DNA from: Thalassavirus gary | Lineage: Duplodnaviria; Heunggongvirae; Uroviricota; Caudoviricetes; Demerecviridae | Virus record (IMG/VR): IMGVR_UViG_2974784677_000001 | Reading direction: 5' to 3' (one strand) | Length of the DNA: 64,000 nt | Part shown: piece by piece, positions 29,404 to 64,000 of the stretch | How positions within the stretch are numbered: the stretch's first letter is position 1 | How the letters are laid out: every line of letters begins with the position of its first letter | Position numbers and translations under genes: made by a program | The notes under the pieces: model-generated | Seen by the model: only the letters and a program-made list of their open reading frames with translations | Told to the model about the DNA's origin: nothing | The model's database searches: none

Positions 29404-29490
29404 GCGTACTGAAGACTGAGTGGTCGGTCAGCAGCCTTCCAAGCTGTCGCTCCGAAAGGGGCTGGGGTTCGACTCCCCCTGTACGCTCCA
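29404..29490 (+). tRNA. type-II (long-arm) tRNA, anticodon ambiguous (loop CTTCCAA reads TCC)
   Basis: acceptor GCGTACT/TGTACGC, extra arm GCTCC-GAAA-GGGGC, T-loop GGTTCGACTCC, CCA. Confidence 0.45.
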
Positions 29491-30752: not shown

Positions 30753-30979
30753 ACCCAGCAGAAGTAAAAGCTAAACTAGACATTCTTGATGGGGAGCTTA
30801 AAGACCTCACCATCAAAGCAAAAGTCCTAGCAGATAAGAAACGCGAGTGTGAGAACGAGAAAGCTCGCTTGCGAGTAATTCAACAATCTGCTTGCGACCA
30901 TCCAAGAGAAGCACGTAGTTCAGTTATGGTAAATAACGAACCCGAATACTTCTGTACATTGTGTGGAAAAGATTTTTAG
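30749..30979 (+). CDS. small zinc-ribbon protein
   Basis: 76 aa, C-terminal CDHP...CTLCG cysteine cluster; ATGA coupling to upstream gene. Confidence 0.35.
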   Translation: MNPAEVKAKLDILDGELKDLTIKAKVLADKKRECENEKARLRVIQQSACDHPREARSSVMVNNEPEYFCTLCGKDF

Positions 30980-31197: not shown

Positions 31198-31290
31198 AGT
31201 TCCTTAGCTCAGTTGGTAGAGCAGCGGGTTTATACTCCGTAGCAACAGATAATTGGCTGGTCATGGGTTCGAGTCCCATAGGAACTACCA
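31198..31290 (+). tRNA. atypical 93-nt tRNA, anticodon loop TTTATAC (TAT), with a 22-nt extra region before the T-arm
   Basis: perfect acceptor AGTTCCT/AGGAACT, canonical D-arm TAGCTCAGTTGGTAGAGC, anticodon stem GCGGG/TCCGT, T-arm ATGGG-TTCGAGT-CCCAT, CCA. Confidence 0.5.
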
Positions 31291-33918: not shown

Positions 33919-34464
33919 ATGAAGAATCAAATTTACCTAGCAGGCGATATGCTAAACCGTGGTGCTCAACTTCAACGAGCAGAAGAAAAACGTGATTTGC
34001 TTAATCTAGGGTACGAATTATACGTGCCACAGGATAATAAAGATATAAATGATAAAGAAAATCTTAACTCGAATGATGGTCTAGCAGAGAAAATTGTTCG
34101 TGCAGATACAGATGGTATCGTGAATTCTGATATCGTGGTCATGGAAGCTCGTGAAGCAGCTCTTGGTACTTGTATTGAACTTGGTCAGATTAAAGGCATG
34201 AAAGACGTCGCTAAAACAGTCTTGTCTATGCTAGAGTCTGGTTGCTCTCTTAAAGAAGTAATTCATAATATGGAGCAAATTCGTGATAAGCTTGTTCTAG
34301 TTCACAACTCAGATATTCGTCGTGCAGGTAATCCTACCGAAACAGGCGATCGTCGCAGCTATGCCCCTCACCAGTACATGTACGGTGTAGTGCTTGATGT
34401 AACCAACGGTCATGGTTACTACGATTGGAACGAAGTTACATACATCCTAGACCGAGGTGTATAA
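33919..34464 (+). CDS. nucleoside 2-deoxyribosyltransferase-like (NDT/Rcl fold) protein; start taken at MKNQIYLAGD after RBS GGAG
   Basis: IYLAGDM motif (NDT family YLAGP-like) and downstream acidic GTCIELG; track ORF starts further upstream at 33742. Confidence 0.45.
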   Translation: MKNQIYLAGDMLNRGAQLQRAEEKRDLLNLGYELYVPQDNKDINDKENLNSNDGLAEKIVRADTDGIVNSDIVVMEAREAALGTCIELGQIKGMKDVAKTVLSMLESGCSLKEVIHNMEQIRDKLVLVHNSDIRRAGNPTETGDRRSYAPHQYMYGVVLDVTNGHGYYDWNEVTYILDRGV

Positions 34465-35090
34465 TGTTAGAAAAGATTTGGTCAGTTATTGCGGTGCTCC
34501 TAGTAATCGGAGCATCAATCATCTCAGGGGCAGATTTGTTTGTGTCTGCCTTGAGTCTAGTAGGTATTCTGTTTGTACTAGGTGTCGCCTTTAAGCGACC
34601 AGAGTCACAGTTACTGGGTGCTGTATTCTGCGGGTTCTTGGCGTTTGCCTCGATGGGCGCAGGCTTTTATGCGAATGCAGTCGTTAATGGATTGATACTA
34701 ATCCCCGCCTCTATATATGGATATTTTCATTGGAAGCGAAGAAAAGGTTTTCAATTAGAGCAAAGTATGTCTAGTGGTGGACTCACTAATATGATTGTTT
34801 CATTAGTGGCCGTCACAGCATTAGTGTTCTTCTTTGGAACTATGGGAGCAGGTGGGGCTATGCCTCTACTAGATGCCCTAACTGGAGTCATGCCAGTATT
34901 TGCAACATTCTTAATGATTGGTGCATATCGAGAGCAATGGCTTCTATGGATACCCTTTAATGCAATACAAGCCTTTATGTGGTTTACCGCCGCGTCTTTG
35001 CAGCCTGCGGTACTGGCGGTGTTTGTGTTGAAACTGGTATTCTTGATTAATTCATTAATCGGATTTTATACTTGGAGAAAAGAGGCGTAA
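34464..35090 (+). CDS. pnuC: PnuC-like nicotinamide riboside/NMN transporter (multi-TM)
   Basis: 6-7 predicted TM helices, IYGYFHWKRRKG resembles the PnuC GW..W motif; TAATG coupling to upstream NDT-like gene. Confidence 0.5.
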   Translation: MLEKIWSVIAVLLVIGASIISGADLFVSALSLVGILFVLGVAFKRPESQLLGAVFCGFLAFASMGAGFYANAVVNGLILIPASIYGYFHWKRRKGFQLEQSMSSGGLTNMIVSLVAVTALVFFFGTMGAGGAMPLLDALTGVMPVFATFLMIGAYREQWLLWIPFNAIQAFMWFTAASLQPAVLAVFVLKLVFLINSLIGFYTWRKEA

Positions 35091-36479: not shown

Positions 36480-36556
36480 GGGTTGTATGCTGAAGTGGAC
36501 GAAGCGCGGGATTGCAAACCCCGTCTTACTCGGTTCGAGTCCGAGACTTCCCTCCA
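36480..36556 (+). tRNA. tRNA-Cys (GCA)
   Basis: anticodon arm CGGGA-TTGCAAA-CCCCG, T-arm CTCGG-TTCGAGT-CCGAG, CCA; acceptor stem has two U-U mismatches. Confidence 0.45.
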
Positions 36557-49578: not shown

Positions 49579-50040
49579 ATGAAGATTGAAAAATTAGAAC
49601 ATCTACTGGCAACAGCAGAACAATGGGCAAAAGACCTACATTACGGACAAACCTACGCTTTTGGTGATGATTACTTTGAGGCTCACATCAAAGAAGTAGA
49701 GAAGACGGTAATTGAACTTACTCGTAGCGATTCGTATACACGAACAGATCGTTACCTAGCACGAATTGTAGCACTCCTGCATGATGCTGTGGAAGATACA
49801 GATTGCACTATCGCAGAGATTCAACGCACATTTGGTACTCGTATTGCACAGTGTGTAATGAACCTAACCAAAGTAGATAAAGAGTCTTGGGAATCGCAAT
49901 GGTCTAGAGCTACACGTGACCCTATCTCTCTGGTAGGTAAGAAAGCAGACATAATGGTTAACCTTCGAGTTTCTTTAGCAAACAACCGTGTAAACCTAAT
50001 TGAAAAATACACAACAGGCTTACGTTATTTATCTCTTTAA
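49579..50040 (+). CDS. HD-domain hydrolase, SpoT/Mesh1-like small alarmone hydrolase candidate
   Basis: H..(about 30)..ALLHDAVEDT motif, 153 aa. Confidence 0.5.
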   Translation: MKIEKLEHLLATAEQWAKDLHYGQTYAFGDDYFEAHIKEVEKTVIELTRSDSYTRTDRYLARIVALLHDAVEDTDCTIAEIQRTFGTRIAQCVMNLTKVDKESWESQWSRATRDPISLVGKKADIMVNLRVSLANNRVNLIEKYTTGLRYLSL

Positions 50041-56653: not shown

Positions 56654-56756
56654 AGACACGAGCTATTTGGGCAACTATTCTAGGGCTGTTAGGCTTCGCA
56701 TTAACGGGAAGCCTGCTAGCAGGTATTATTAGTTCAATTATAGGAGCATTACTAGT

Positions 56757-57506
56757 ATGAGCGTAATTGATATTACAGATCGTCGCCATATTTACTTCGT
56801 TGGCGACCTTCATGGTGACTGGAAAGCACTAAAGTTTTTCCTAGACCAAGTAGAATTCAACTACAGAGACATTATTGTCTCTGTAGGGGACTTATTCGAC
56901 CGTGGTGAGAAGCCACTAGAAGTAATTAACTTCTTCCTATACACTGAGAACGCTTTAGCAGTTCTTGGCAACCACGAAGATATGGCAATCCAAGGTCTAG
57001 TGCATGGCGATAACCGTTGGGCTATGACTTGGATACAAAATGGCGGGGATTGGTTCTTAGACTATCCTGAAGGTATGATTAAAGGGATTCTCAAGCAGAT
57101 TGAGAAGGAGTTCCCGTACCAGCTAACATTGCGATACGAAAATACAAAATTTGGAGTAACACATGCAGAAGCACCAACAGAGCACTGGGATGACTATGTT
57201 CAAAGAGCAGGCAAATACCATCCTGACGACAATCGAGCAATCTGGGGACGCAGCGCCATCAAAGGTAATAGATTTACTAACATTCGTGGGGTGGACTTCA
57301 CTATTCACGGGCACAGTGTTCGTGACTCTGTTACTAACATCGGTAATCAAATGTGGATTGATACTGGCTCAGTATTTGATGGGGGCGACCGTAAATACGG
57401 ACTCACAGTAATGGAGTGGGACAAATCTGGTAAAGGTGGTTGGGTAAATCACCGTATAATCAGAAATCATTTTGAACGTGGTGGTCTAGAACATCTAATT
57501 ATCTAA
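56757..57506 (+). CDS. Ser/Thr protein phosphatase (PPP-family metallophosphatase)
   Basis: GDLHGD, GDLFDRG, GNHE signature motifs. Confidence 0.8.
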   Translation: MSVIDITDRRHIYFVGDLHGDWKALKFFLDQVEFNYRDIIVSVGDLFDRGEKPLEVINFFLYTENALAVLGNHEDMAIQGLVHGDNRWAMTWIQNGGDWFLDYPEGMIKGILKQIEKEFPYQLTLRYENTKFGVTHAEAPTEHWDDYVQRAGKYHPDDNRAIWGRSAIKGNRFTNIRGVDFTIHGHSVRDSVTNIGNQMWIDTGSVFDGGDRKYGLTVMEWDKSGKGGWVNHRIIRNHFERGGLEHLII

Positions 57507-57535
57507 TTGCTAAAACACGTTAAAAAGCGTATAAT
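57507..57535 (+). promoter_or_regulatory. early promoter TTGCTA-17-TATAAT with conserved leader
   Basis: AGTTACATAAAGTTGAGAATCGGAGATAGTCATTATG. Confidence 0.6.
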
Positions 57536-57569
57536 AGTTACATAAAGTTGAGAATCGGAGATAGTCATT

Positions 57570-57833
57570 ATGGTAGATTTTTGGGACAAACACCTTAACA
57601 AAGTGCAACAATTCGAAATCGTAGATTCAGTAGCAGGTACTTGTGAAACAGGTTGTGATGCTGAATACTGGCAAAAAGAATTTGGATTCAGCGATGAAGT
57701 ACGTGACGAGCTAGATTGGGACTTCCCTAGTCTAGCTGCTAAATTCGAGCTATTCCGCTGTGAAGACTGCATGTGGTGGGGCGACATGGGTGAAGTTGGC
57801 GAATGTAATGAATGTGGGGGAGATTTAGTATGA
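57570..57833 (+). CDS. small cysteine-rich protein (zinc-binding candidate)
   Basis: CETGCDAEYW ... CEDCMWWGD..CNECGG. Confidence 0.4.
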   Translation: MVDFWDKHLNKVQQFEIVDSVAGTCETGCDAEYWQKEFGFSDEVRDELDWDFPSLAAKFELFRCEDCMWWGDMGEVGECNECGGDLV

Positions 57834-58078
57834 ACGTAATTATTTTTAACGGAAACGTACTACCAGCAGATAGAGCCGCTCTGTTTGGTGACGAAGAGGT
57901 AGTGTTCGTAGCTCCTAGTGATGCCCGAGATCTACCTAGCCTGTTAGCTTTCCTAGGCATCTACAAGTCTACCTCTCAGGCTCGTCAGGCAGGTCGTAAA
58001 GGCAAAATCCCTACTGGCTGGACAGTGATGAAGGCTAGTAAGAAAGTTGAACTATTTATTTGGAATCCTACGGAGTAG
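57812..58078 (+). CDS. hypothetical protein
   Basis: 88-aa ORF. Confidence 0.35.
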   Translation: MWGRFSMNVIIFNGNVLPADRAALFGDEEVVFVAPSDARDLPSLLAFLGIYKSTSQARQAGRKGKIPTGWTVMKASKKVELFIWNPTE

Positions 58079-59010
58079 AAGATATGAAATTTAACGTACA
58101 AGATTTGATCGACCGTGGCTTGGTTAAAGCTAAAGAATACGACAATGGACTAAAAGTATTGAAGTACGACCGTAAGGTATTCTTCAAGAACTTGTGGCAT
58201 CTAGACGAACGCTTGCTTGAGTGTCGTGGTCGTGTGGTAGACGCTGACTGGAATGTGATTGTTAATCCATTCAAGAAAGTATTCAACTATGGTGAAAACG
58301 GTACTGGTAACGAACTACGTACTGACTGCCTGTACCGTGAAGTACACAAGCTTAATGGCTTCTTGGGCTGCGTGACTAACTCGTCTGAATATGGTATGTT
58401 GTACTCTACTACTGGTACACTGGATTCTACGTATGCACAGATGGTTAAAGATATGTTCGTACACCATACTCACCATGCAGATCTGCTTCACAAAGACTTT
58501 ACTATGATGTTTGAGGTGTGTCACCCAGATGACCCACACATTGTAGAAGAGCAAGTGGGTCTATATCTAATTGGTATCAGACACACTGGTGAAGGCGACG
58601 AGTGTGAAGAAGACCAGTTTACAGAAGCAGAGCTAGATAAAATGGCACGCTGGTTCGGTTGGAGTCGTCCAGAGCATCGTCTAGATACACTCGACAATAT
58701 CCTAGCACGAGCTAAAATGTCTAAAACAGAAGGTGTTATGGTGTGTTCAGCATTAAATGACGAGCACTTGTTTAAATACAAGACTCCACACTATCTGTCT
58801 AAAAAGCTGCTGATGCGTCTAGGTAAAGCTCGTGTGGAGCAGTTGTTTGACAACCCAGAGCAGTTTAAGAAGAACTTAAAGGATGAAGAGTTCTTTGGTT
58901 TTGTGGAATATGTTTCTTCTAATATCCCCCGCGATGTGTGGAAGACCATGAAAGATCAAGAACGACGTAACCTTATTGAGTGTTGGTTCGATAAAAACAA
59001 CGCTTTTTAA
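58060..59010 (+). CDS. ATP-dependent RNA/polynucleotide ligase (covalent nucleotidyltransferase superfamily, Rnl-like)
   Basis: motif I HKLNGF (KxNG), motif III FEVCH, motif IV TEGVMV, motif V LFKYKTP. Confidence 0.5.
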   Translation: MESYGVEDMKFNVQDLIDRGLVKAKEYDNGLKVLKYDRKVFFKNLWHLDERLLECRGRVVDADWNVIVNPFKKVFNYGENGTGNELRTDCLYREVHKLNGFLGCVTNSSEYGMLYSTTGTLDSTYAQMVKDMFVHHTHHADLLHKDFTMMFEVCHPDDPHIVEEQVGLYLIGIRHTGEGDECEEDQFTEAELDKMARWFGWSRPEHRLDTLDNILARAKMSKTEGVMVCSALNDEHLFKYKTPHYLSKKLLMRLGKARVEQLFDNPEQFKKNLKDEEFFGFVEYVSSNIPRDVWKTMKDQERRNLIECWFDKNNAF

Positions 59011-59030
59011 ATTGCCAAAGCAGGGATGCT
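59002..59030 (+). promoter_or_regulatory. early promoter TTGCCA-17-TATAAT
   Basis: inside the 3' end of the ligase gene; leader TAGAAATTGAGGAGATTGTTATG. Confidence 0.5.
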
Positions 59031-59065
59031 TTGATATAATATCTGTAGAAATTGAGGAGATTGTT

Positions 59066-59470
59066 ATGAAAAAACTATATTTGATTCGCGGTGTATCTGG
59101 TTCTGGCAAAACTACTCTAGCTAAAACAATGGAACAAGGTATGCTATACTCTCGTGCTGTTGCTGCTGATGACTACTTTATGGTAGAAGGCAAATATCTG
59201 TTTGATGTAAACAAGCTACATGCAGCACATCAATGGTGTCAAGACCAAGTTGATGGTCTTATGGTTTGCGAAATGCACCACATTATTGTGCATAACACCT
59301 TCACTACAGAAAAAGAAATGAAACCATACCTTAACCTAGCAGAAAAGTATGGTTATGAAGTAACAACTCTAGTGGTTGAAAATCGTCACGAATCGGAATC
59401 GGTACACGATGTACCAGAAGAAACTCTAACACGTCAGCATCAACGCCTACGTGCGAACATCCGTCTATAA
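59066..59470 (+). CDS. polynucleotide 5'-kinase (T4 Pnk kinase-domain-like P-loop protein)
   Basis: LIRGVSGSGKTTLAK Walker A; C-terminal VHDVPEETLTRQHQRLR resembles T4 Pnk VFDVPWTELVKRNSKR; start at MKKLYLIRG after RBS GAGGAG. Confidence 0.5.
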   Translation: MKKLYLIRGVSGSGKTTLAKTMEQGMLYSRAVAADDYFMVEGKYLFDVNKLHAAHQWCQDQVDGLMVCEMHHIIVHNTFTTEKEMKPYLNLAEKYGYEVTTLVVENRHESESVHDVPEETLTRQHQRLRANIRL

Positions 59471-59479
59471 GGAGATAAT

Positions 59480-60043
59480 ATGCGTCTACAGTTCGGAGCA
59501 AAACTAAATCCAGATGTGAATTATTTTATCACGTCTGACTTACACTTCTTTCATACTAACATTATGAAGTTCTGCCCAGAGACGCGTCCTTGGGCTGACC
59601 ATAATGAAATGACGGAAGCACTTATTGCACATTGGAACTCTATTGTGGGTGAAGATGATGTAGTGTTCCACCTTGGAGATTTTTCATTCGCAGGAATGGA
59701 GAAAACTCAGGCTGTCCTAGACCGATTGAATGGTACAATTGTATTTGTAATGGGCAACCACGACAAAACTGTTCGAAATCAGTTGAAGTCACCAAACAAG
59801 TTCGAATATCTCGAAGTTACTTATAATAAAATCAAAATCTGTATGTTCCACTATGCAATGCGTGTATGGAATATGCAACATCATGGTAGCATCCATTTCT
59901 ATGGTCACTCTCATGGGTCACTAGAAGGTACTGGACGCTCTATGGACGTGGGCTATGATGCTCATGGTCGAATCCTGCCGCTAGATTGGGCAGTAAAACG
60001 AATGCAGAAAATTCAAGACATCGAAACAGAGGATCATCACTAA
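59480..60043 (+). CDS. calcineurin-like metallophosphoesterase (candidate 2',3'/3'-phosphatase partner)
   Basis: DLHFFH, GDFSF, GNHD, GHSHG motifs. Confidence 0.6.
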   Translation: MRLQFGAKLNPDVNYFITSDLHFFHTNIMKFCPETRPWADHNEMTEALIAHWNSIVGEDDVVFHLGDFSFAGMEKTQAVLDRLNGTIVFVMGNHDKTVRNQLKSPNKFEYLEVTYNKIKICMFHYAMRVWNMQHHGSIHFYGHSHGSLEGTGRSMDVGYDAHGRILPLDWAVKRMQKIQDIETEDHH

Positions 60044-60627
60044 TGAAAAAGTTTCTAGTATTAATGGCGGCAGTACTATCTTTCAACGCATCTGCTGGTA
60101 GCTGTGCGCAGCAGGTAGGAAATATTAGTGGTCTAGATAAGGCTACTAAACAAACAATGATAATTCAGTGTGAGCAAGCAAAGCTAACAAGCATTAAAAA
60201 TGCTCCACAAGAAGTTGGTGAGATTTCGGATGCAACCGTCGAAAAGATGGATAAATGGTCAGAAATTTCCTTGAAGTTCGCGAAAGCGATTGGTGTGGCA
60301 GCTAAGGAAGTTGGTGTAGCCACTAACGAGTTCCTAGGGACTCCGGCTGGTAAGTTTACAGCAACTATTATAGCATGGAAGATATTTAATGGTACATCAT
60401 GGCTTGCTTTCTTTTTGATGCTAGCTATTACTACCATTATAATCCGAAGTTTCATTCGATTCGTACGCCATAGCGGGTACGAGGAAGTATCTGGTAAGCT
60501 CTTTAATTATAAGAGACCAACCAAGTATACATGGAAAGAAATGGGTGAGAACCAAGTTGGTATGTGCGTTCTAGCATATATTGTCTATATAGTAGTCGTA
60601 TTCTTTACAGCAGTTAATTTATTCTAA
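59986..60627 (+). CDS. membrane protein with signal peptide and C-terminal TM helices
   Basis: signal FLVLMAAVLSFNASA; TM WLAFFLMLAITTIII and LAYIVYIVVVFFTAV. Confidence 0.4.
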   Translation: MGSKTNAENSRHRNRGSSLMKKFLVLMAAVLSFNASAGSCAQQVGNISGLDKATKQTMIIQCEQAKLTSIKNAPQEVGEISDATVEKMDKWSEISLKFAKAIGVAAKEVGVATNEFLGTPAGKFTATIIAWKIFNGTSWLAFFLMLAITTIIIRSFIRFVRHSGYEEVSGKLFNYKRPTKYTWKEMGENQVGMCVLAYIVYIVVVFFTAVNLF

Positions 60628-61088
60628 TGATTAAATATATTGCAATACTATCAAGCCTAGTGCTAATGCTAGGCTTTGCTCACGATGCCCTTGCAACTGA
60701 AAAAGTTGAAGACCCCACTAAGATTGAAGTCTATGGCGGGGCTCTGTCGTATCACTTCGATACTGATAAAGACCTTAACAATGTAAACCCACTAGTCATT
60801 GCTACATATGACGATTGGGCTACAGGCTACTTCTATAATAGCTATAAAGAGAACTCCTTTATGGTAGGTAGAAACTTCTACCTAGAAAGACCTGATCGTT
60901 CTCCTGTAGTTATAGGGGTAATACTCGGAGCTGTAACGGGCTATAATAAAAATCAAGTACCTATGTGCTTTACAGATGGATTCTGTCCTATGGTAATGCC
61001 TTATATTCAATGGCATTATGGAAACTGGAAGCCAACCATAATCTTCGGCGGAGCATTTGTGTCTGCTGCTGTTGGGTACGAATTTTAA
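60627..61088 (+). CDS. outer-membrane beta-barrel protein candidate (PagL/OmpW-size)
   Basis: signal peptide ILSSLVLMLGFAHDALA, alternating amphipathic strands, C-terminal GYEF ending in Phe. Confidence 0.4.
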   Translation: MIKYIAILSSLVLMLGFAHDALATEKVEDPTKIEVYGGALSYHFDTDKDLNNVNPLVIATYDDWATGYFYNSYKENSFMVGRNFYLERPDRSPVVIGVILGAVTGYNKNQVPMCFTDGFCPMVMPYIQWHYGNWKPTIIFGGAFVSAAVGYEF

Positions 61089-61093
61089 ATCTT

Positions 61094-61117
61094 AGGTTGC
61101 TTCGGCAACCTTTTTTA
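61094..61117 (+). terminator. rho-independent terminator
   Basis: AGGTTGC-TTCG-GCAACCT + TTTTTT. Confidence 0.65.
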
Positions 61118-61125
61118 CGTATAAT
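61097..61125 (+). promoter_or_regulatory. early promoter TTGCTT-17-TATAAT overlapping the upstream terminator
   Basis: leader ATGTATAAATTAAAGAGAAGGAAACAATATG. Confidence 0.55.
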
Positions 61126-61155
61126 ATATGTATAAATTAAAGAGAAGGAAACAAT

Positions 61156-62028
61156 ATGTCAAATATTAGCATTATGTGTAACGGCGACAACCACCATTAC
61201 GAACTACAAGTAGACTTCACTAAATTCTCAGATGGAGCAGAAACTTGTACTATTCGCAAACCAAATGTAGACCTTACTAAGTCTAACTTCGTGGTCGTTA
61301 CTATTAACTTCCAAGACGTTACTCGTGATATTGTACGTCTACTCCTAGTGAAAGATGCGCTAGACAATATGCGTGCTGAAAACTGTATCAATTGGGGACG
61401 TATCTCACTAAACATGCCATATATCCCTAACGCCCGTGCTGACCGTAAGTTTGGTTTCGGTATGCCGCTACCTGTTAAGGTATTTGCTAACCTTATCAAT
61501 GCAATGAACTTCGATGAAGTAATGGTAGAAGACCCTCATTCAGATGTTAGTGTGGCACTTATCAACAACGCCACTGTGCTAGACCAATCAGCATTGGTTA
61601 GTATGATGGAACATCATATCGAAAGATACATGCCAGACTTCACTCTGTGTGCACCAGACCTAGGTGCTGCAAAGAAAATCTTTGATGTAGCGTTTGCTAT
61701 GGATAAGCGTGACTGGATTCAAGGTCTTAAAATCCGTGACGTACTTACAGGTGATATTGTTAAGTGTGACCTAGTGCAAGATGAAGTGCCTGAAAATGTT
61801 CTTATTGTAGACGACATTTCAGACGGTGGAGCATCATTCAAGTTCTTGGCTAAGAAACTAAAAGAGCGCGGAGCTAAGAAAGTAGGTCTATATGTTACTC
61901 ATGGTATCTTCTCTAAGGGTCTAGACCCAATCCGCGAAGATATTGATTATGTATTCGTACACAACTTCATTGGTGGCTACATCAATGCAGCAAACGTTCT
62001 AGCATTCAACGAAGGTAAGGATCAATAA
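61156..62028 (+). CDS. ribose-phosphate pyrophosphokinase (PRPP synthetase) family protein; candidate ADP-ribose pyrophosphokinase (Adps-like)
   Basis: VLIVDDISDGGASFKFLAKKLKERGAKKVGLYVTHGIFS closely parallels Prs [38 protein letters not shown]. Confidence 0.7.
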   Translation: MSNISIMCNGDNHHYELQVDFTKFSDGAETCTIRKPNVDLTKSNFVVVTINFQDVTRDIVRLLLVKDALDNMRAENCINWGRISLNMPYIPNARADRKFGFGMPLPVKVFANLINAMNFDEVMVEDPHSDVSVALINNATVLDQSALVSMMEHHIERYMPDFTLCAPDLGAAKKIFDVAFAMDKRDWIQGLKIRDVLTGDIVKCDLVQDEVPENVLIVDDISDGGASFKFLAKKLKERGAKKVGLYVTHGIFSKGLDPIREDIDYVFVHNFIGGYINAANVLAFNEGKDQ

Positions 62029-62504
62029 TGATTAAAGTAGTTCATGGTGATATGGTCAAACATCTACAATCAAAAGACCACCTAGATGCATATGCTCACC
62101 AATGTAACTGTTTCTGTAGAATGGGGAGAGGCATTGCGCCTCTTCTAGCTAAGGCAGTTCCTGGCCTTAGAAAAGCAGATGATATGACTGTTCCTGGTGA
62201 TAAGTCTAAGTTAGGTAGTGTATCTTTATCTGCACATCCTAACGGAGCAGTAGTATTTAATGTCTATGGTCAATATCATTGGCACGCACATAAAGTAGCA
62301 CCAGGCAGAAATACTGACTATGGTGCGCTTAGAAATGGACTAATTACAGTTATTGATCTAATGCAAGAGCATGATTTTAAGACTCTAGGTCTACCTTTGA
62401 TTGGCTGTGGGCTAGCAGGTGGCGATTGGGATAATGTTGTACTCCCAATGATTCACGAATTATTTAATGGATCGGGTGTTGACGTTACTATTTTTAAATT
62501 GTAA
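62028..62504 (+). CDS. macro-domain protein (ADP-ribose binding/processing)
   Basis: 158 aa; HQCNCFCRMGRGIA and GLPLIGCGLAGGDW resemble macro-domain Gly-rich loops; ATGA coupling to the Prs-like gene. Confidence 0.55.
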   Translation: MIKVVHGDMVKHLQSKDHLDAYAHQCNCFCRMGRGIAPLLAKAVPGLRKADDMTVPGDKSKLGSVSLSAHPNGAVVFNVYGQYHWHAHKVAPGRNTDYGALRNGLITVIDLMQEHDFKTLGLPLIGCGLAGGDWDNVVLPMIHELFNGSGVDVTIFKL

Positions 62505-62533
62505 TTGCTTAACTAACTAAAATCTCGTATAAT
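62505..62533 (+). promoter_or_regulatory. early promoter TTGCTT-17-TATAAT
   Basis: leader ACACATAAATTAAAGAAGACAACAAAGGAAATAATCTATG. Confidence 0.55.
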
Positions 62534-62572
62534 ATACACATAAATTAAAGAAGACAACAAAGGAAATAATCT

Positions 62573-64000
62573 ATGTCATACAATATCCCTTACCTAGCAG
62601 CACTTATCACTGACGGTTACAAAGTATTCCACCCGTTTGCTTACCGCCCAGGCACTACTCACGTGTACAGTAACGGTACTGCTCGATTTAATAAACACTC
62701 GAACGTACCAAACAACGCTGAAATTGTTCACTTTGGTATCCAAATGGCTCTACAGAAGCTAAACACATTGTGGAACGAAAACTTCTTCAAGCACCCTAAA
62801 GAAGCAGTTCTAGCAGAATACCAACGTGTTATCTCTGGCTACCTTGGCAAGAAAATCAGCGTAGACCATATCGATAAACTACACGATGTTGGTTATCTGC
62901 CAATCGAAGTTAAGTCGCTACCAGAAGGTTCTCTTGTACCTTATGGTGTGCCACCATACACTATTCATAACACTGTGGAAGGTCTAGGTTGGGTAACTAA
63001 CTTGCTAGAAACTCCGTTCAGTGCTGAATACTGGCCTGCTGTAACATCTGCAACTACTGCGTTTGCTTACCGCTCTCGCTTCGAACAAGTACCTGCACTA
63101 CGTGCTGGTGGCATGATTAAGTTCATGGGTCACGACTTCTCTGCTCGTGGTCTATGGGGTATGTTTGCACCCGAACAGAATGGTCACTTGACTTCATTCG
63201 TTGGTACAGACTCTATGGTATCTGGTCTGGCAATGGAGCAATACTACGATGCTCGAATCGACAAAGAGCTAGTAATGGCTTCTGTTGATGCTACTGAGCA
63301 CTCAGTAATGTGTTCATACGAAACAGAGAACGAGCTAGAGTCATTGATTCACTTGATCAGTAATGTTACCCCAAACGGTATCATCTCTATCGTTTCTGAT
63401 ACATGGGACTTCTGGCAGTTGGTAACTCAGTACCTACCAGAAATCAAAGACCTAATCATGTCTCGTGATGGTACAGTGGTTATTCGTCCAGACTCAGGCG
63501 ACCCAGTTAAGATTCTTACTGGTTACACTATCGGCGAACAAGAGTTCGTAAGCGTAGATGACTACTACGAATACTATGACTACCGAATCGCTCCTAAACC
63601 AGAAGCGGTTAAAATCGGTGGAGTCTACCATGAAATGGGTGGTATTTCACAAGATGGTCGAGTTGGTCTAGGTAAAACGCTAGAAGAACACGAAGTAAAA
63701 GGTCTAATCGAGTGCCTATGGGATACATTCGGTGGTACAGAAGTTGATGGTCTACGTCTACTAGACTCACACATTGGAGCTATCTATGGTGACTCTATTA
63801 CCCTAGAACGTCAAGACCAAATTATCAAGCGTTTGCTTGCTAAAGGTTTCGTTCCTAGCGTAGTTCTTGGTATTGGTTCATTCACATACCAGTACGTTAC
63901 TCGTGATACTCACGGCTTTGCTATTAAAGCTACTGACATTCAAGTTGGTGAAGGCAATCACATTGCTATTAGCAAAGACCCTAAAACTGACCAAAGCAAA
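62573..64000 (+). CDS. nicotinamide phosphoribosyltransferase family protein (NadV/Nampt or Namat-like), 5' partial; continues beyond window end
   Basis: ITDGYKVFH..., LPIEVKSLPEGSLVPYG..., EYWPAVTSATTA closely parallel human NAMPT LATDSYKVTH, LPIEIKAVPEGFVIPRG, SWYPITVATNS. Confidence 0.75.
   Translation, partial: MSYNIPYLAALITDGYKVFHPFAYRPGTTHVYSNGTARFNKHSNVPNNAEIVHFGIQMALQKLNTLWNENFFKHPKEAVLAEYQRVISGYLGKKISVDHIDKLHDVGYLPIEVKSLPEGSLVPYGVPPYTIHNTVEGLGWVTNLLETPFSAEYWPAVTSATTAFAYRSRFEQVPALRAGGMIKFMGHDFSARGLWGMFAPEQNGHLTSFVGTDSMVSGLAMEQYYDARIDKELVMASVDATEHSVMCSYETENELESLIHLISNVTPNGIISIVSDTWDFWQLVTQYLPEIKDLIMSRDGTVVIRPDSGDPVKILTGYTIGEQEFVSVDDYYEYYDYRIAPKPEAVKIGGVYHEMGGISQDGRVGLGKTLEEHEVKGLIECLWDTFGGTEVDGLRLLDSHIGAIYGDSITLERQDQIIKRLLAKGFVPSVVLGIGSFTYQYVTRDTHGFAIKATDIQVGEGNHIAISKDPKTDQSK

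What the first reader, a model, noticed from the sequence alone, without database searches (positions are those of the whole stretch)
58060..60043. Three-gene RNA healing-and-sealing cassette: Rnl-type ligase + Pnk-like kinase + calcineurin-like phosphoesterase as separate polypeptides
The 316-aa ORF has nucleotidyltransferase motifs I (KLNG), III, IV (EGVMV) and V (KYK) and is an ATP-dependent ligase. The next ORF has a P-loop and a C-terminus strikingly like the T4 Pnk 5'-kinase domain. The third is a metallophosphoesterase (DxH..GD..GNHD..GHxH). Together they have the domain content of bacterial Pnkp (kinase, calcineurin-type phosphatase, ligase) and of the T4 Pnk/Rnl1 tRNA-repair system. 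Here they are split into three genes in ligase-kinase-phosphatase order. In a phage with about 25 tRNAs this is a plausible countermeasure against anticodon nucleases (PrrC, RloC, retron or PARIS-type tRNA cleavage). An internal promoter (59002-59030) sits inside the 3' end of the ligase gene.
Basis: partly seen in the sequence, partly recalled or inferred. Interest (0 to 1): 0.7.

Follow-up and report, generated by a model that had tools for sequence, protein, structure and literature searches.

The report
Split phage RNA heal-and-seal cassette
Three adjacent genes of Vibrio phage Gary encode an RNA ligase, an RNA 5' kinase and a metal-dependent phosphoesterase that probably re-join RNAs (likely tRNAs) cut by bacterial defence nucleases; the same module is in hundreds of sequenced phages and has been predicted before, so it is a sound but ordinary finding.

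Summary
The window is Vibrio phage Gary/GRLPWR, a T5-like Thalassavirus (100% identity). The three genes are real, with two corrections. The ligase starts at ATG 58084 (308 aa), not TTG 58060. The promoter-like site is intergenic (59012-59040), not inside the ligase.

- **Phosphoesterase:** an AQ1575-type binuclear enzyme in the same family as mycobacteriophage D29 gp66, a reported 2',3'-cyclic nucleotide phosphodiesterase.

Of 80 viral loci retrieved with the ligase alone, 77 carry the kinase and/or the phosphoesterase within 6 kb. Gene order varies. Kinase-ligase fusions exist. In other loci a T4 Pnkp-type HAD phosphatase sits next to the kinase instead of the metallophosphoesterase. The RNA-repair reading is therefore well supported, although no enzyme activity was tested.

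The module is not new. It occurs in rV5, PVP-SE1 and PAK_P-like phages, and Iyer et al. 2022 predicted it to be an RNA-repair neighbourhood. I rate it a new member of a known kind, of moderate interest. It lies 1.1 kb upstream of Gary's experimentally characterised NARP1-AP anti-defence operon.

The parts
58084..59010 (+). Rnl1-family ATP-dependent RNA ligase (Gary gp176, 308 aa). The predicted adenylylation lysine is K89 in HKLNGF.
59012..59040 (+). Sigma-70-like promoter match (TTGCCA-17-TGnTATAAT) in the ligase-kinase spacer.
   Evidence: Best match (11/12) in 56.5-62.7 kb. Sequence read. Identical in phage River4; in phage Ceto the two substitutions fall between the hexamers. It is a consensus match only; function is not shown.
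59066..59470 (+). Stand-alone minimal Pnk-type polynucleotide 5'-OH kinase (gp177, 134 aa). It has the P-loop G9-T16 and catalytic Asp35.
59480..60043 (+). AQ1575/D29-gp66-type binuclear metallophosphoesterase (gp178, 187 aa). It is the predicted 2',3'-cyclic-phosphate / 3'-phosphate end-healing enzyme.
   Evidence: PF12850 and PF00149 above cut-off; phrog_547 at 7e-54. All metal-ligand motifs are invariant in 28 homologues: D20, H22, D67, N93, H94, H124, H143 and H145. PDB 1XM7 (aq_1665) hits at 9.5e-21. It is in the same family as D29 gp66: hhalign 99.4% probability at E 2e-21, and gp66 hits phrog_547 at 4e-52.

Best explanation
The three genes form a split RNA heal-and-seal module. [quoted passage not shown]

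Inferred steps:
1. The gp178 metallophosphoesterase opens and removes the 2',3'-cyclic or 3'-phosphate to give a 3'-OH.
2. The gp177 kinase transfers the gamma-phosphate of an NTP to the 5'-OH, using Asp35 as general base.
3. The gp176 ligase adenylylates itself on Lys89, transfers AMP to the 5'-phosphate and seals the break.

The most likely biological role is counter-defence: restoring tRNAs (host or phage-encoded) cut in the anticodon loop by HEPN-type nucleases such as PrrC or RloC. The module sits in an accessory and anti-defence gene block next to the NARP1-AP operon.

Shown here: family and fold of all three proteins, presence of their catalytic residues, and a strong evolutionary linkage between them. 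Inferred: every enzymatic activity, the order of the steps, the RNA substrate and the defence system that is countered.
For: Protein identity:
- The phosphoesterase keeps every binuclear-site residue. It is in the same family as D29 gp66, which is reported as a 2',3'-cyclic nucleotide phosphodiesterase (Dutta et al. 2014, as cited in PMC12287305).

Linkage between the three genes:
- Of 80 IMG/VR loci fetched with the ligase alone, 49 have all three families within 6 kb, 17 have ligase + phosphoesterase, 11 have ligase + kinase, and 3 have the ligase alone.
- After clustering the ligases at 50% identity, 11 of 16 clusters still have all three.
- Gene order varies: M-L-K, K-L-M, L-K-M and L-M-K, where M is the phosphoesterase, L the ligase and K the kinase.
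- Kinase::ligase fusion ORFs of about 432 aa exist. A PHROG family (phrog_8238) joins kinase-, metallophosphoesterase- and Rnl1-like segments.
- In about 9 loci a stand-alone homologue of the T4 Pnkp HAD phosphatase domain (residues about 155-301) lies beside or near the kinase, mostly in loci that lack the metallophosphoesterase family.
- In GenBank phages the ligase and kinase have nearly identical genus distributions.
- Independent annotators called the homologues in phage Bas51 RNA ligase, polynucleotide kinase and phosphoesterase.

Context: the cassette lies 1.1 kb upstream of Gary's Adps-Adpp-Namat operon, which is an experimentally shown anti-defence pathway (bioRxiv 10.64898/2026.01.28.702374).
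Against: - No activity has been measured for any member of these three subfamilies, as far as the held literature shows.
- The ligase is 66 residues shorter than T4 Rnl1, and the profile alignment stops at T4 residue 265. I recall that the T4 C-terminal domain confers tRNA specificity; it is largely absent here, so the substrate could be other RNA.
- T4 Rnl1 Lys119 aligns with an invariant Thr in this family, and T4 Pnk Arg38 aligns with Phe.
- The phosphoesterase family is broader than the module. 33 of 78 phosphoesterase-seeded loci have neither partner, and it occurs in SPO1-like phages that did not appear among the ligase hits.
- Its mycobacteriophage members are reported to have other roles: Bxb1 gp47 is a recombination directionality factor, and A10ZJ24 gp48 damages host DNA (PMC12287305).
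- The kinase also occurs alone (25 of 80 loci), next to an ATP-dependent DNA ligase, or in a bacterial chromosome.
Confidence: 0.75

Rival explanations
1. The module heals and seals RNA as a housekeeping function for the phage's own RNAs, not as counter-defence. One such role would be maturation or quality control of its 23 tRNAs, some of which have unusual lengths.
Against: ARAGORN reports no intron in any of them, and the extra length lies in the variable region. From general knowledge, bacterial and phage tRNA introns are self-splicing group I introns. The module is often next to anti-defence genes such as NARP1 and sirtuins.
Confidence: 0.08
2. The enzymes repair DNA ends rather than RNA. 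An example would be processing the single-strand interruptions typical of T5-like genomes, or breaks made by host nucleases.
For: A kinase homologue lies directly after an ATP-dependent DNA ligase in a marine phage contig. In rV5-like phages an ATP-dependent DNA ligase lies two to six genes downstream of the module. From general knowledge, T4 Pnkp also acts on DNA. The phosphoesterase gives a weak NCBIfam hit to the ligase-associated DNA-damage-response PdeM (E 8e-4, far below cut-off).
Confidence: 0.07
3. The adjacency is largely circumstantial for the phosphoesterase. It would act on small molecules such as 2',3'-cyclic nucleotides or immune signalling nucleotides, or on host DNA, independently of the ligase and kinase.
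For: The family occurs without either partner in 33 of 78 seeded loci and in many phages that did not appear among the ligase hits. D29 gp66 is reported to act on mononucleotide substrates, and A10ZJ24 gp48 is reported to damage host DNA (PMC12287305). Calcineurin-like T5 A1 homologues have been proposed to degrade nucleotide signals (PMC7824862).
Against: 66 of 80 ligase loci carry this exact family within 6 kb, and in 30 of those 66 it lies within 300 bp of the ligase. The Pnkp HAD 3'-phosphatase domain mostly accompanies the kinase where this phosphoesterase is absent. Without it, the Gary cassette has no 3'-end healing enzyme.
Confidence: 0.07
4. The kinase and phosphoesterase belong to the neighbouring NAD+ salvage and reconstitution genes, not to RNA repair. 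For example, the kinase could act as a nicotinamide-riboside kinase.
For: The best single-sequence PDB hit of the kinase is human nicotinamide riboside kinase 1, over residues 7-49 (E 0.0045; profile E 1.7e-6). An Adps-like gene lies within 6 kb of the ligase in 29 of 80 loci, and a Macro gene in 18 of 80. Gary also carries a PnuC-like NMN transporter.
Confidence: 0.03

Closest known systems
Phage T4 Pnkp (pseT) + Rnl1 (gene 63) tRNA restriction-repair pathway
   Different: The kinase is a stand-alone 134-aa protein, not fused to a phosphatase. The 3' healing enzyme is a binuclear metallophosphoesterase rather than a DxDxT (HAD) acylphosphatase. The ligase is 66 aa shorter and lacks most of the T4 C-terminal domain. 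It falls far below the T4 RnlA equivalog cut-off (29.8 against 242 bits). A tail-fibre-attachment role, as for T4 gp63, has no support here.
Bacterial Pnkp/Hen1 (Clostridium thermocellum) and Pnkp1/Rnl/Hen1 RNA repair systems
The rV5 / PVP-SE1 / PAK_P-type phage neighbourhood predicted to be RNA repair by Iyer, Burroughs and Aravind (Viruses 2022, PMC9503650 section 3.7.3; also Viruses 2021, PMC7824862)
   Same: These phages carry the same three protein families: homologues at 37-46% (ligase), 38-48% (kinase) and 40-46% (phosphoesterase) identity in Vequintavirinae, Pakpunavirus, Otagovirus and others. [quoted passage not shown] In PAK_P4 the kinase is followed by the same Prs-like and NadV-like pair as in Gary.
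   Different: The Gary version has no cREC or sirtuin gene beside it; PVP-SE1 gp106 is a cREC protein. Its order is ligase-kinase-phosphoesterase, found in only 3 of the 80 ligase-seeded loci. It sits in a T5-like siphovirus.
Fungal/plant tRNA ligase Trl1 (LIG-KIN-CPD)
   Different: Trl1 is one polypeptide. It uses a 2H cyclic phosphodiesterase and, from general knowledge, needs a 2'-phosphate at the junction that Tpt1 later removes. No 2H or Tpt1/KptA gene is annotated in Gary.
Mycobacteriophage D29 gp66 and Aquifex aq_1665 (PDB 1XM7): the AQ1575-type metallophosphoesterase family
   Same: gp178 is a member of this family. gp66 is reported as a 2',3'-cyclic nucleotide phosphodiesterase (Dutta et al. 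2014, via PMC12287305).
   Different: In the 11-kb D29 region I viewed, gp66 has no annotated RNA ligase or kinase nearby. Other Cluster A members are reported to have DNA-damaging or recombination-directionality roles (PMC12287305). The function of aq_1665 is unknown.

Membership tests
Rnl1 family of ATP-dependent RNA ligases (T4 RnlA-like; Pfam PF09511) | Covalent nucleotidyltransferase motifs I (KxxG lysine nucleophile), III, IV and V, plus the Rnl1-specific N-terminal Arg and Lys/Phe elements | tested here: met
   K89-x-N-G aligns with T4 K99-E-D-G. E144 aligns with E159, E216-G217 with E227-G228, and K231/K233 with K240/K242. R48 aligns with R54, and K65/F67 with K75/F77 (hhalign). All are invariant in 28 homologues. 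One exception: T4 K119 aligns with an invariant Thr110.
Rnl1 family of ATP-dependent RNA ligases (T4 RnlA-like; Pfam PF09511) | Score above the curated family threshold | tested here: met
   PF09511 scores 52.4 bits against a gathering score of 28.3.
Rnl1 family of ATP-dependent RNA ligases (T4 RnlA-like; Pfam PF09511) | Fold closest to T4 Rnl1 among ligases | tested here: met
T4 RnlA orthologue group (NCBIfam TIGR02308 equivalog) | Full-length equivalog score, including the C-terminal tRNA-specificity domain (T4 residues about 255-374) | tested here: not met
   TIGR02308 scores 29.8 bits against a cut-off of 242.25, matching only model positions 35-250. The hhalign alignment ends at T4 residue 265, and the protein is 308 aa against 374.
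Rnl1 family of ATP-dependent RNA ligases | ATP-dependent sealing of 3'-OH/5'-PO4 RNA ends through a ligase-AMP intermediate | not testable with these tools
   This needs purified protein.
Pnk-type polynucleotide 5'-OH kinase (T4 Pnkp / CthPnkp kinase domain) | P-loop GxxxxGK(S/T) and the catalytic Asp general base (T4 Asp35 / Cth Asp38) | tested here: met
   GVSGSGKT is at residues 9-16. Asp35 in AADDYF aligns with T4 NRDDYR. G14, K15 and D35 are invariant in 31 homologues.
Pnk-type polynucleotide 5'-OH kinase (T4 Pnkp / CthPnkp kinase domain) | Arginines that bind the acceptor and donor phosphates (T4 Arg38, Arg126) | tested here: inconclusive
   T4 Arg38 aligns with Phe38, which is the family consensus. 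T4 Arg126 falls in a poorly aligned loop. A nearly invariant Arg107 (in NRH) and Arg127 exist and may substitute.
Pnk-type polynucleotide 5'-OH kinase (T4 Pnkp / CthPnkp kinase domain) | Fold closest to polynucleotide kinases rather than to nucleoside, nucleotide or small-molecule kinases | tested here: met
T4 Pnkp (bifunctional kinase-phosphatase) | Kinase fused to a DxDxT (HAD) 3'-phosphatase domain | tested here: not met
   The protein ends after the kinase domain at 134 aa. hhalign covers T4 Pnkp residues 1-158 only. Separate HAD-domain genes lie beside or near this kinase family in other phages, but not in Gary.
Bacterial Pnkp/Hen1 RNA repair system | A single polypeptide of kinase, lambda-phosphatase-like metallophosphoesterase and ligase, partnered with a Hen1 2'-O-methyltransferase | tested here: not met
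Calcineurin-like binuclear metallophosphoesterase superfamily, AQ1575 / D29 gp66 subfamily | The five metal-ligand motifs DxH, GD, GNH(D/E), H and GHxH | tested here: met
   D20, H22, G66, D67, G92, N93, H94, H124, G142, H143 and H145 are invariant in 28 homologues. PF12850 and PF00149 are above cut-off.
Calcineurin-like binuclear metallophosphoesterase superfamily, AQ1575 / D29 gp66 subfamily | Specific similarity to aq_1665 (1XM7) and to D29 gp66 | tested here: met
   1XM7 hits at E 9.5e-21 with the family profile. D29 gp66 gives hhalign 99.4% probability at E 2e-21 with 30% identity. Both proteins hit phrog_547.
Calcineurin-like binuclear metallophosphoesterase superfamily, AQ1575 / D29 gp66 subfamily | Activity on RNA 2',3'-cyclic-phosphate or 3'-phosphate ends | not testable with these tools
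   This rests only on the reported activity of gp66 on mononucleotides, and on the gene-context evidence that the Pnkp HAD phosphatase domain can accompany the kinase instead.

The most novel reading that the evidence does not exclude
The Rnl1-short ligase, minimal Pnk kinase and AQ1575/gp66-type metallophosphoesterase form a distinct, essentially phage-restricted third kind of heal-and-seal pathway, beside T4 Pnkp/Rnl1 and bacterial Pnkp/Hen1. It would also be functionally coupled to NAD+ metabolism. An Adps-like gene lies within 6 kb of the ligase in 29 of 80 loci, a Macro gene in 18 of 80, and sirtuins flank it in rV5-like phages. One possible coupling is that the phosphoesterase leaves a 2'-phosphate that is removed in an NAD+-dependent step. 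Another is that the two modules jointly counter defence systems that both cut tRNA and deplete NAD+.
Probability: 0.15. Interest if true: 0.6.

Novelty: new member of a known kind. Interest (0 to 1): 0.38.

Why it matters
tRNA-cleaving defences (PrrC, RloC, Cas13a, retron and Schlafen-type tRNases) are being found at a fast rate. The only phage repair pathway proven by experiment is still T4 Pnkp/Rnl1.

This split module is far more widespread than the T4 version. In GenBank phages of Escherichia, Pseudomonas, Vibrio, Klebsiella and Acinetobacter, the ligase matched 759 records and the kinase 643. These include therapeutic candidates of the rV5 and PAK_P1 groups. In the held literature I found no biochemical study of it.

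In Gary it sits beside an anti-defence operon that has already been cloned and tested. The phage and host tools for a knockout or complementation test therefore probably exist. Showing that an AQ1575/gp66-type metallophosphoesterase heals RNA 3' ends would also assign a function to a large family of 'phosphoesterase' genes and to the structural-genomics protein 1XM7.

Tried and rejected
1. **Nicotinamide-riboside-kinase reading of gp177.** It was raised by the best single-sequence PDB hit. I rejected it because the match covers only residues 6-51, the fold search ranks polynucleotide kinases far higher, and kinase::ligase fusions exist.
2. **The NinI/lambda-phosphatase-like gp173 (56757-57506) as the real 3' healing enzyme.** It resembles the bacterial Pnkp phosphatase more than gp178 does: a weak TIGR04075 hit and a match to phrog_8238 positions 170-310. 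It accompanies the ligase in only 4 of 80 loci, so it is not part of the module.
3. **Cellular homologues.** A scan of 185,579 species' genomes with the ligase profile found only 4 hits, all on metagenome-assembled contigs. The ligase subfamily looks phage-restricted. The scan is pattern-based and can miss relatives.
5. **Burroughs and Aravind 2016 (NAR)**, the main prior survey of RNA-repair operons, is not held. I relied on the two later papers from the same group.
6. **Other RNA-repair partners in Gary** (KptA/Tpt1, 2H, cREC, sirtuin, RlaP). None is annotated, and Pfam scans of the genes around the Rnl2-type ligase found none. Record positions 1-46312 were not inspected.
Full report
**Source and coordinates.** The region 56700-62600 is 100% identical to Vibrio phage Gary (NC_055913) and GRLPWR, and 91-96% identical to about 45 other Thalassavirus genomes. 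These are T5-like Demerecviridae that infect Vibrio harveyi and V. campbellii. A window coordinate equals the record coordinate minus 46312.

RefSeq annotates the three genes as gp176 'putative RNA ligase/tail attachment protein', gp177 'ATPase' and gp178 'phosphoesterase'. The sequence was therefore known. The cassette is not recognised as a unit in this record.

**Checking the observation.** The three ORFs and the quoted motifs are present, and all three match curated families above threshold. Two details need correction.
- The ligase starts at ATG 58084 (308 aa). A GGAG lies 8 nt upstream, the preceding gene stops at 58076-58078, and every homologue starts MKFNV. The 316-aa reading from TTG 58060 is only the mechanical ORF.
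- The strongest sigma-70-like match in the region is TTGCCA-17-TGnTATAAT at 59012-59040 (11/12). It begins 2 nt after the ligase stop codon and lies in the 55-nt spacer before the kinase start at 59066. It is not inside the ligase.

The promoter-like site is identical in phage River4. In phage Ceto it has two substitutions, both in the spacer between the hexamers, and there it precedes an extra inserted ORF. It remains a consensus match, not a demonstrated promoter. ARAGORN finds 21 tRNA genes and RefSeq lists 23.

**The ligase.**
- Pfam RNA_lig_T4_1 scores 52.4 bits against a cut-off of 28.3.
- A profile of 28 homologues aligns to T4 Rnl1 residues 45-265 with 97% probability.
- That alignment places K89 on the T4 nucleophile K99, E144 on E159, E216-G217 on E227-G228, K231/K233 on K240/K242, R48 on R54, and K65/F67 on K75/F77. 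All are invariant in the family.

The protein is not a T4 RnlA orthologue. It scores 29.8 bits against the 242-bit equivalog cut-off, it is 66 residues shorter, and it lacks most of the T4 C-terminal domain. T4 K119 is replaced by an invariant Thr. The inherited 'tail attachment' label has no support here.

**The kinase.** At 134 aa it is about as small as a Pnk domain can be.
- A family profile aligns to T4 Pnkp residues 1-158 with 97% probability.
- The profile matches CthPnk and T4 Pnk over their full kinase domains in PDB sequences.
- The P-loop and Asp35, the counterpart of T4 Asp35, are invariant in 31 homologues.

**The phosphoesterase.** All binuclear-site residues are invariant. The only solved relative is the uncharacterised Aquifex aq_1665 (1XM7), at E 9.5e-21 with the family profile. 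It is not the lambda-phosphatase-like type used by bacterial Pnkp, and it gives no TIGR04075 hit.

It is in the same family as mycobacteriophage D29 gp66: hhalign gives 99.4% probability at E 2e-21, and both proteins hit phrog_547. D29 gp66 is reported as a 2',3'-cyclic nucleotide phosphodiesterase (Dutta et al. 2014, cited in PMC12287305), which is the chemistry needed for 3'-end healing. The same paper reports quite different roles for other Cluster A members, so family membership alone does not fix the substrate.

**Are the three genes a unit?** This was the key test. I retrieved 80 IMG/VR loci using the ligase profile alone. I then searched their ORFs with HMMs of the kinase and phosphoesterase families.

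| Seed family | Loci | All three | Ligase + phosphoesterase | Ligase + kinase | Kinase + phosphoesterase | Seed alone |
|---|---|---|---|---|---|---|
| Ligase | 80 | 49 | 17 | 11 | - | 3 |
| Kinase | 80 | 21 | - | 10 | 24 | 25 |
| Phosphoesterase | 78 | 9 | 36 | - | - | 33 |

- Where present, the kinase is within 300 bp of the ligase in 44 of 60 loci, and the phosphoesterase in 30 of 66.
- After clustering the ligases at 50% identity, 11 of 16 clusters have all three families, 4 have ligase + phosphoesterase, and 1 has ligase + kinase.
- Gene order varies: M-L-K is commonest, followed by K-L-M, L-K-M (the Gary order) and L-M-K. Here M is the phosphoesterase, L the ligase and K the kinase.
- Kinase::ligase fusion ORFs of about 432 aa occur, with the kinase at residues 13-142 and the ligase at 150-429.
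- A PHROG family, phrog_8238, joins kinase-, metallophosphoesterase- and Rnl1-like segments.
- In about nine kinase-seeded loci a stand-alone homologue of the T4 Pnkp HAD phosphatase domain (T4 residues about 155-301) lies beside or near the kinase, mostly where the metallophosphoesterase family was not detected. This argues that the metallophosphoesterase fills the 3'-phosphatase role.

So the ligase almost always has a healing partner, while the two healing enzymes also have lives of their own. Kinase homologues also occur beside an ATP-dependent DNA ligase, beside an NAD synthase, and alone in a bacterial chromosome.

**Distribution and prior knowledge.**
- In GenBank phages the ligase matches 759 records, the kinase 643 and the phosphoesterase 1472. 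The ligase and kinase have almost the same genus profile: Escherichia about 199, Pseudomonas about 174, Vibrio about 86, Klebsiella 36, Acinetobacter 24.
- The trio is in rV5-like phages such as PVP-SE1, in Pakpunavirus PAK_P4, and in BASEL phage Bas51. The authors of Bas51 already named the genes RNA ligase, polynucleotide kinase and putative phosphoesterase.
- Iyer, Burroughs and Aravind (2022, PMC9503650 section 3.7.3) describe the rV5-type neighbourhood as a predicted RNA-repair system. [quoted passage not shown] I confirmed that the small gene between the ligase and kinase in PVP-SE1 is a cREC protein.
- Their jumbo-phage survey also notes calcineurin-like phosphatases in this role (PMC7824862).
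- I found no biochemical study of these subfamilies.
- A scan of one genome per bacterial or archaeal species found only 4 relatives of the ligase, all on metagenome-assembled contigs. The subfamily looks phage-restricted.

**Mechanism and target.** The best-supported model is heal-and-seal of RNA ends carrying a 2',3'-cyclic phosphate and a 5'-OH. The phosphoesterase would produce the 3'-OH, the kinase the 5'-phosphate, and the ligase would seal through ligase-AMP (K89) and AppRNA. All of these steps are inferred.

The need for both healing enzymes points to metal-independent nucleases such as the HEPN-type PrrC, RloC and Cas13a. It does not point to PARIS, whose AriB Toprim nuclease leaves 5'-phosphate and 3'-OH ends (PMC12409363). 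tRNA is the likeliest substrate by analogy with T4. However, the tRNA-specificity domain of T4 Rnl1 is largely missing here, so this remains open.

**Genomic context.**
- The cassette lies 1.1 kb upstream of Adps (61156-62028), Macro/Adpp (62028-62504) and Namat (62573 onward). This is the three-gene NARP1-AP operon that Osterman et al. cloned from this very phage and showed to overcome aRES NAD+-depletion defence (bioRxiv 10.64898/2026.01.28.702374).
- An Adps-like gene lies within 6 kb of the ligase in 29 of 80 loci, and a Macro gene in 18 of 80. PAK_P4 has the same juxtaposition.
- This may reflect an anti-defence island or a functional link through NAD+. I could not separate these two readings, and the counts are not corrected for relatedness.

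**Verdict.** The cassette is a new member, in a T5-like vibriophage, of a known, widespread and computationally predicted kind of phage RNA-repair module. It is worth an experiment, but it is not surprising to a specialist.

Noticed in passing
window 61156-64000 (Adps 61156-62028, Macro/Adpp 62028-62504, Namat 62573 to beyond the window end): This is the Adps-Adpp-Namat (NARP1-AP) NAD+ reconstitution operon. It was cloned from Vibrio phage Gary and shown by experiment to overcome aRES and Nezha defence (bioRxiv 10.64898/2026.01.28.702374). RefSeq still labels the genes ribose-phosphate pyrophosphokinase, phosphatase and nicotinamide phosphoribosyl transferase.
   Followed up: yes
80 ligase-seeded IMG/VR loci L009-L088; also L090 (PAK_P4): An Adps-like gene lies within 6 kb of the Rnl1-like ligase in 29 of 80 loci, and a Macro-domain gene in 18 of 80. 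In PAK_P4 the kinase is directly followed by the Prs-like and NadV-like pair. The RNA-repair and NAD+-reconstitution modules are recurrent neighbours. The counts are not corrected for phylogeny.
   Followed up: partly
L001 15235-16221 (record 112246-113232, about 1.9 kb beyond the window end): Gary has a second RNA ligase of the Rnl2 family (PF09414 at 35 bits; phrog_548 at 3e-69). Like T4, it therefore carries both Rnl1- and Rnl2-type ligases. Pfam found no RNA-repair partner among its ten neighbours.
   Followed up: partly
window 56757-57506: This is a NinI/lambda-phosphatase-like metallophosphoesterase (gp173), three genes upstream of the ligase. It is the type related to the bacterial Pnkp phosphatase domain (weak TIGR04075 hit; phrog_8238 positions 170-310). 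It accompanies the ligase in only 4 of 80 loci, so it is probably unrelated to the cassette.
   Followed up: yes
window 31198-31290 and 29404-29490: Two phage tRNAs have odd lengths. tRNA-Ile(UAU) is 93 nt with a variable region of about 22 nt. A 'tRNA-Gly(UCC)' is 87 nt with a class II-like long variable arm. The second, together with tRNA-Cys at 36480 and the RefSeq tRNA-Trp at 30978, does not reach the Rfam tRNA gathering score.
   Followed up: partly
L051, L053, L056-L062 and L071 (for example L053 5545-6840): These are single ORFs of about 432 aa that fuse the minimal Pnk kinase (residues 13-142) to the Rnl1-like ligase (150-429). phrog_8238 (737 positions) appears to join kinase, lambda-type metallophosphoesterase and Rnl1-like ligase segments, that is, a phage Pnkp-like triple fusion.
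   Followed up: partly
L112 5491-5994, L119 5512-5994, L132 5533-5994, L121 3962-4390, L172 6936-7403 and others: Stand-alone genes homologous to the T4 Pnkp HAD phosphatase domain alone (T4 residues about 155-301) lie beside or near the stand-alone kinase. T4 Pnkp therefore also exists in a two-gene split form in uncultured phages.
   Followed up: partly
window 49579-50040 (gp156); L090 494-1054; L072 5456-5962: An HD_4 (RelA/SpoT-type) phosphohydrolase gene recurs near the module. In contig L072 it is directly upstream of the ligase. In PAK_P4 it is two genes upstream of the phosphoesterase. In Gary it is about 8 kb upstream. L072 also has a DSP/PTP 'Swiss-army-knife'-like phosphatase nearby.
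   Followed up: no
window 60043-61088: Two apparent cargo genes separate the cassette from NARP1-AP. One is a predicted secreted or membrane protein (phrog_19575). The other is a PagP-like lipid A palmitoyltransferase homologue (phrog_3600 at 3e-42).
   Followed up: no
window 33919-35090: A nucleoside 2-deoxyribosyltransferase and a PnuC-like nicotinamide-mononucleotide transporter are embedded in the tRNA gene block. These are further NAD-related cargo in this phage (RefSeq annotation).
   Followed up: no
window 57570-57833: gp174 (87 aa, phrog_2855) ends in a CxxC...CxxC zinc-ribbon-like motif. gp175 (phrog_11006) lies directly upstream of the ligase. Both are of unknown function and are confined to close relatives (1-2 of 80 ligase loci).
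   Followed up: partly
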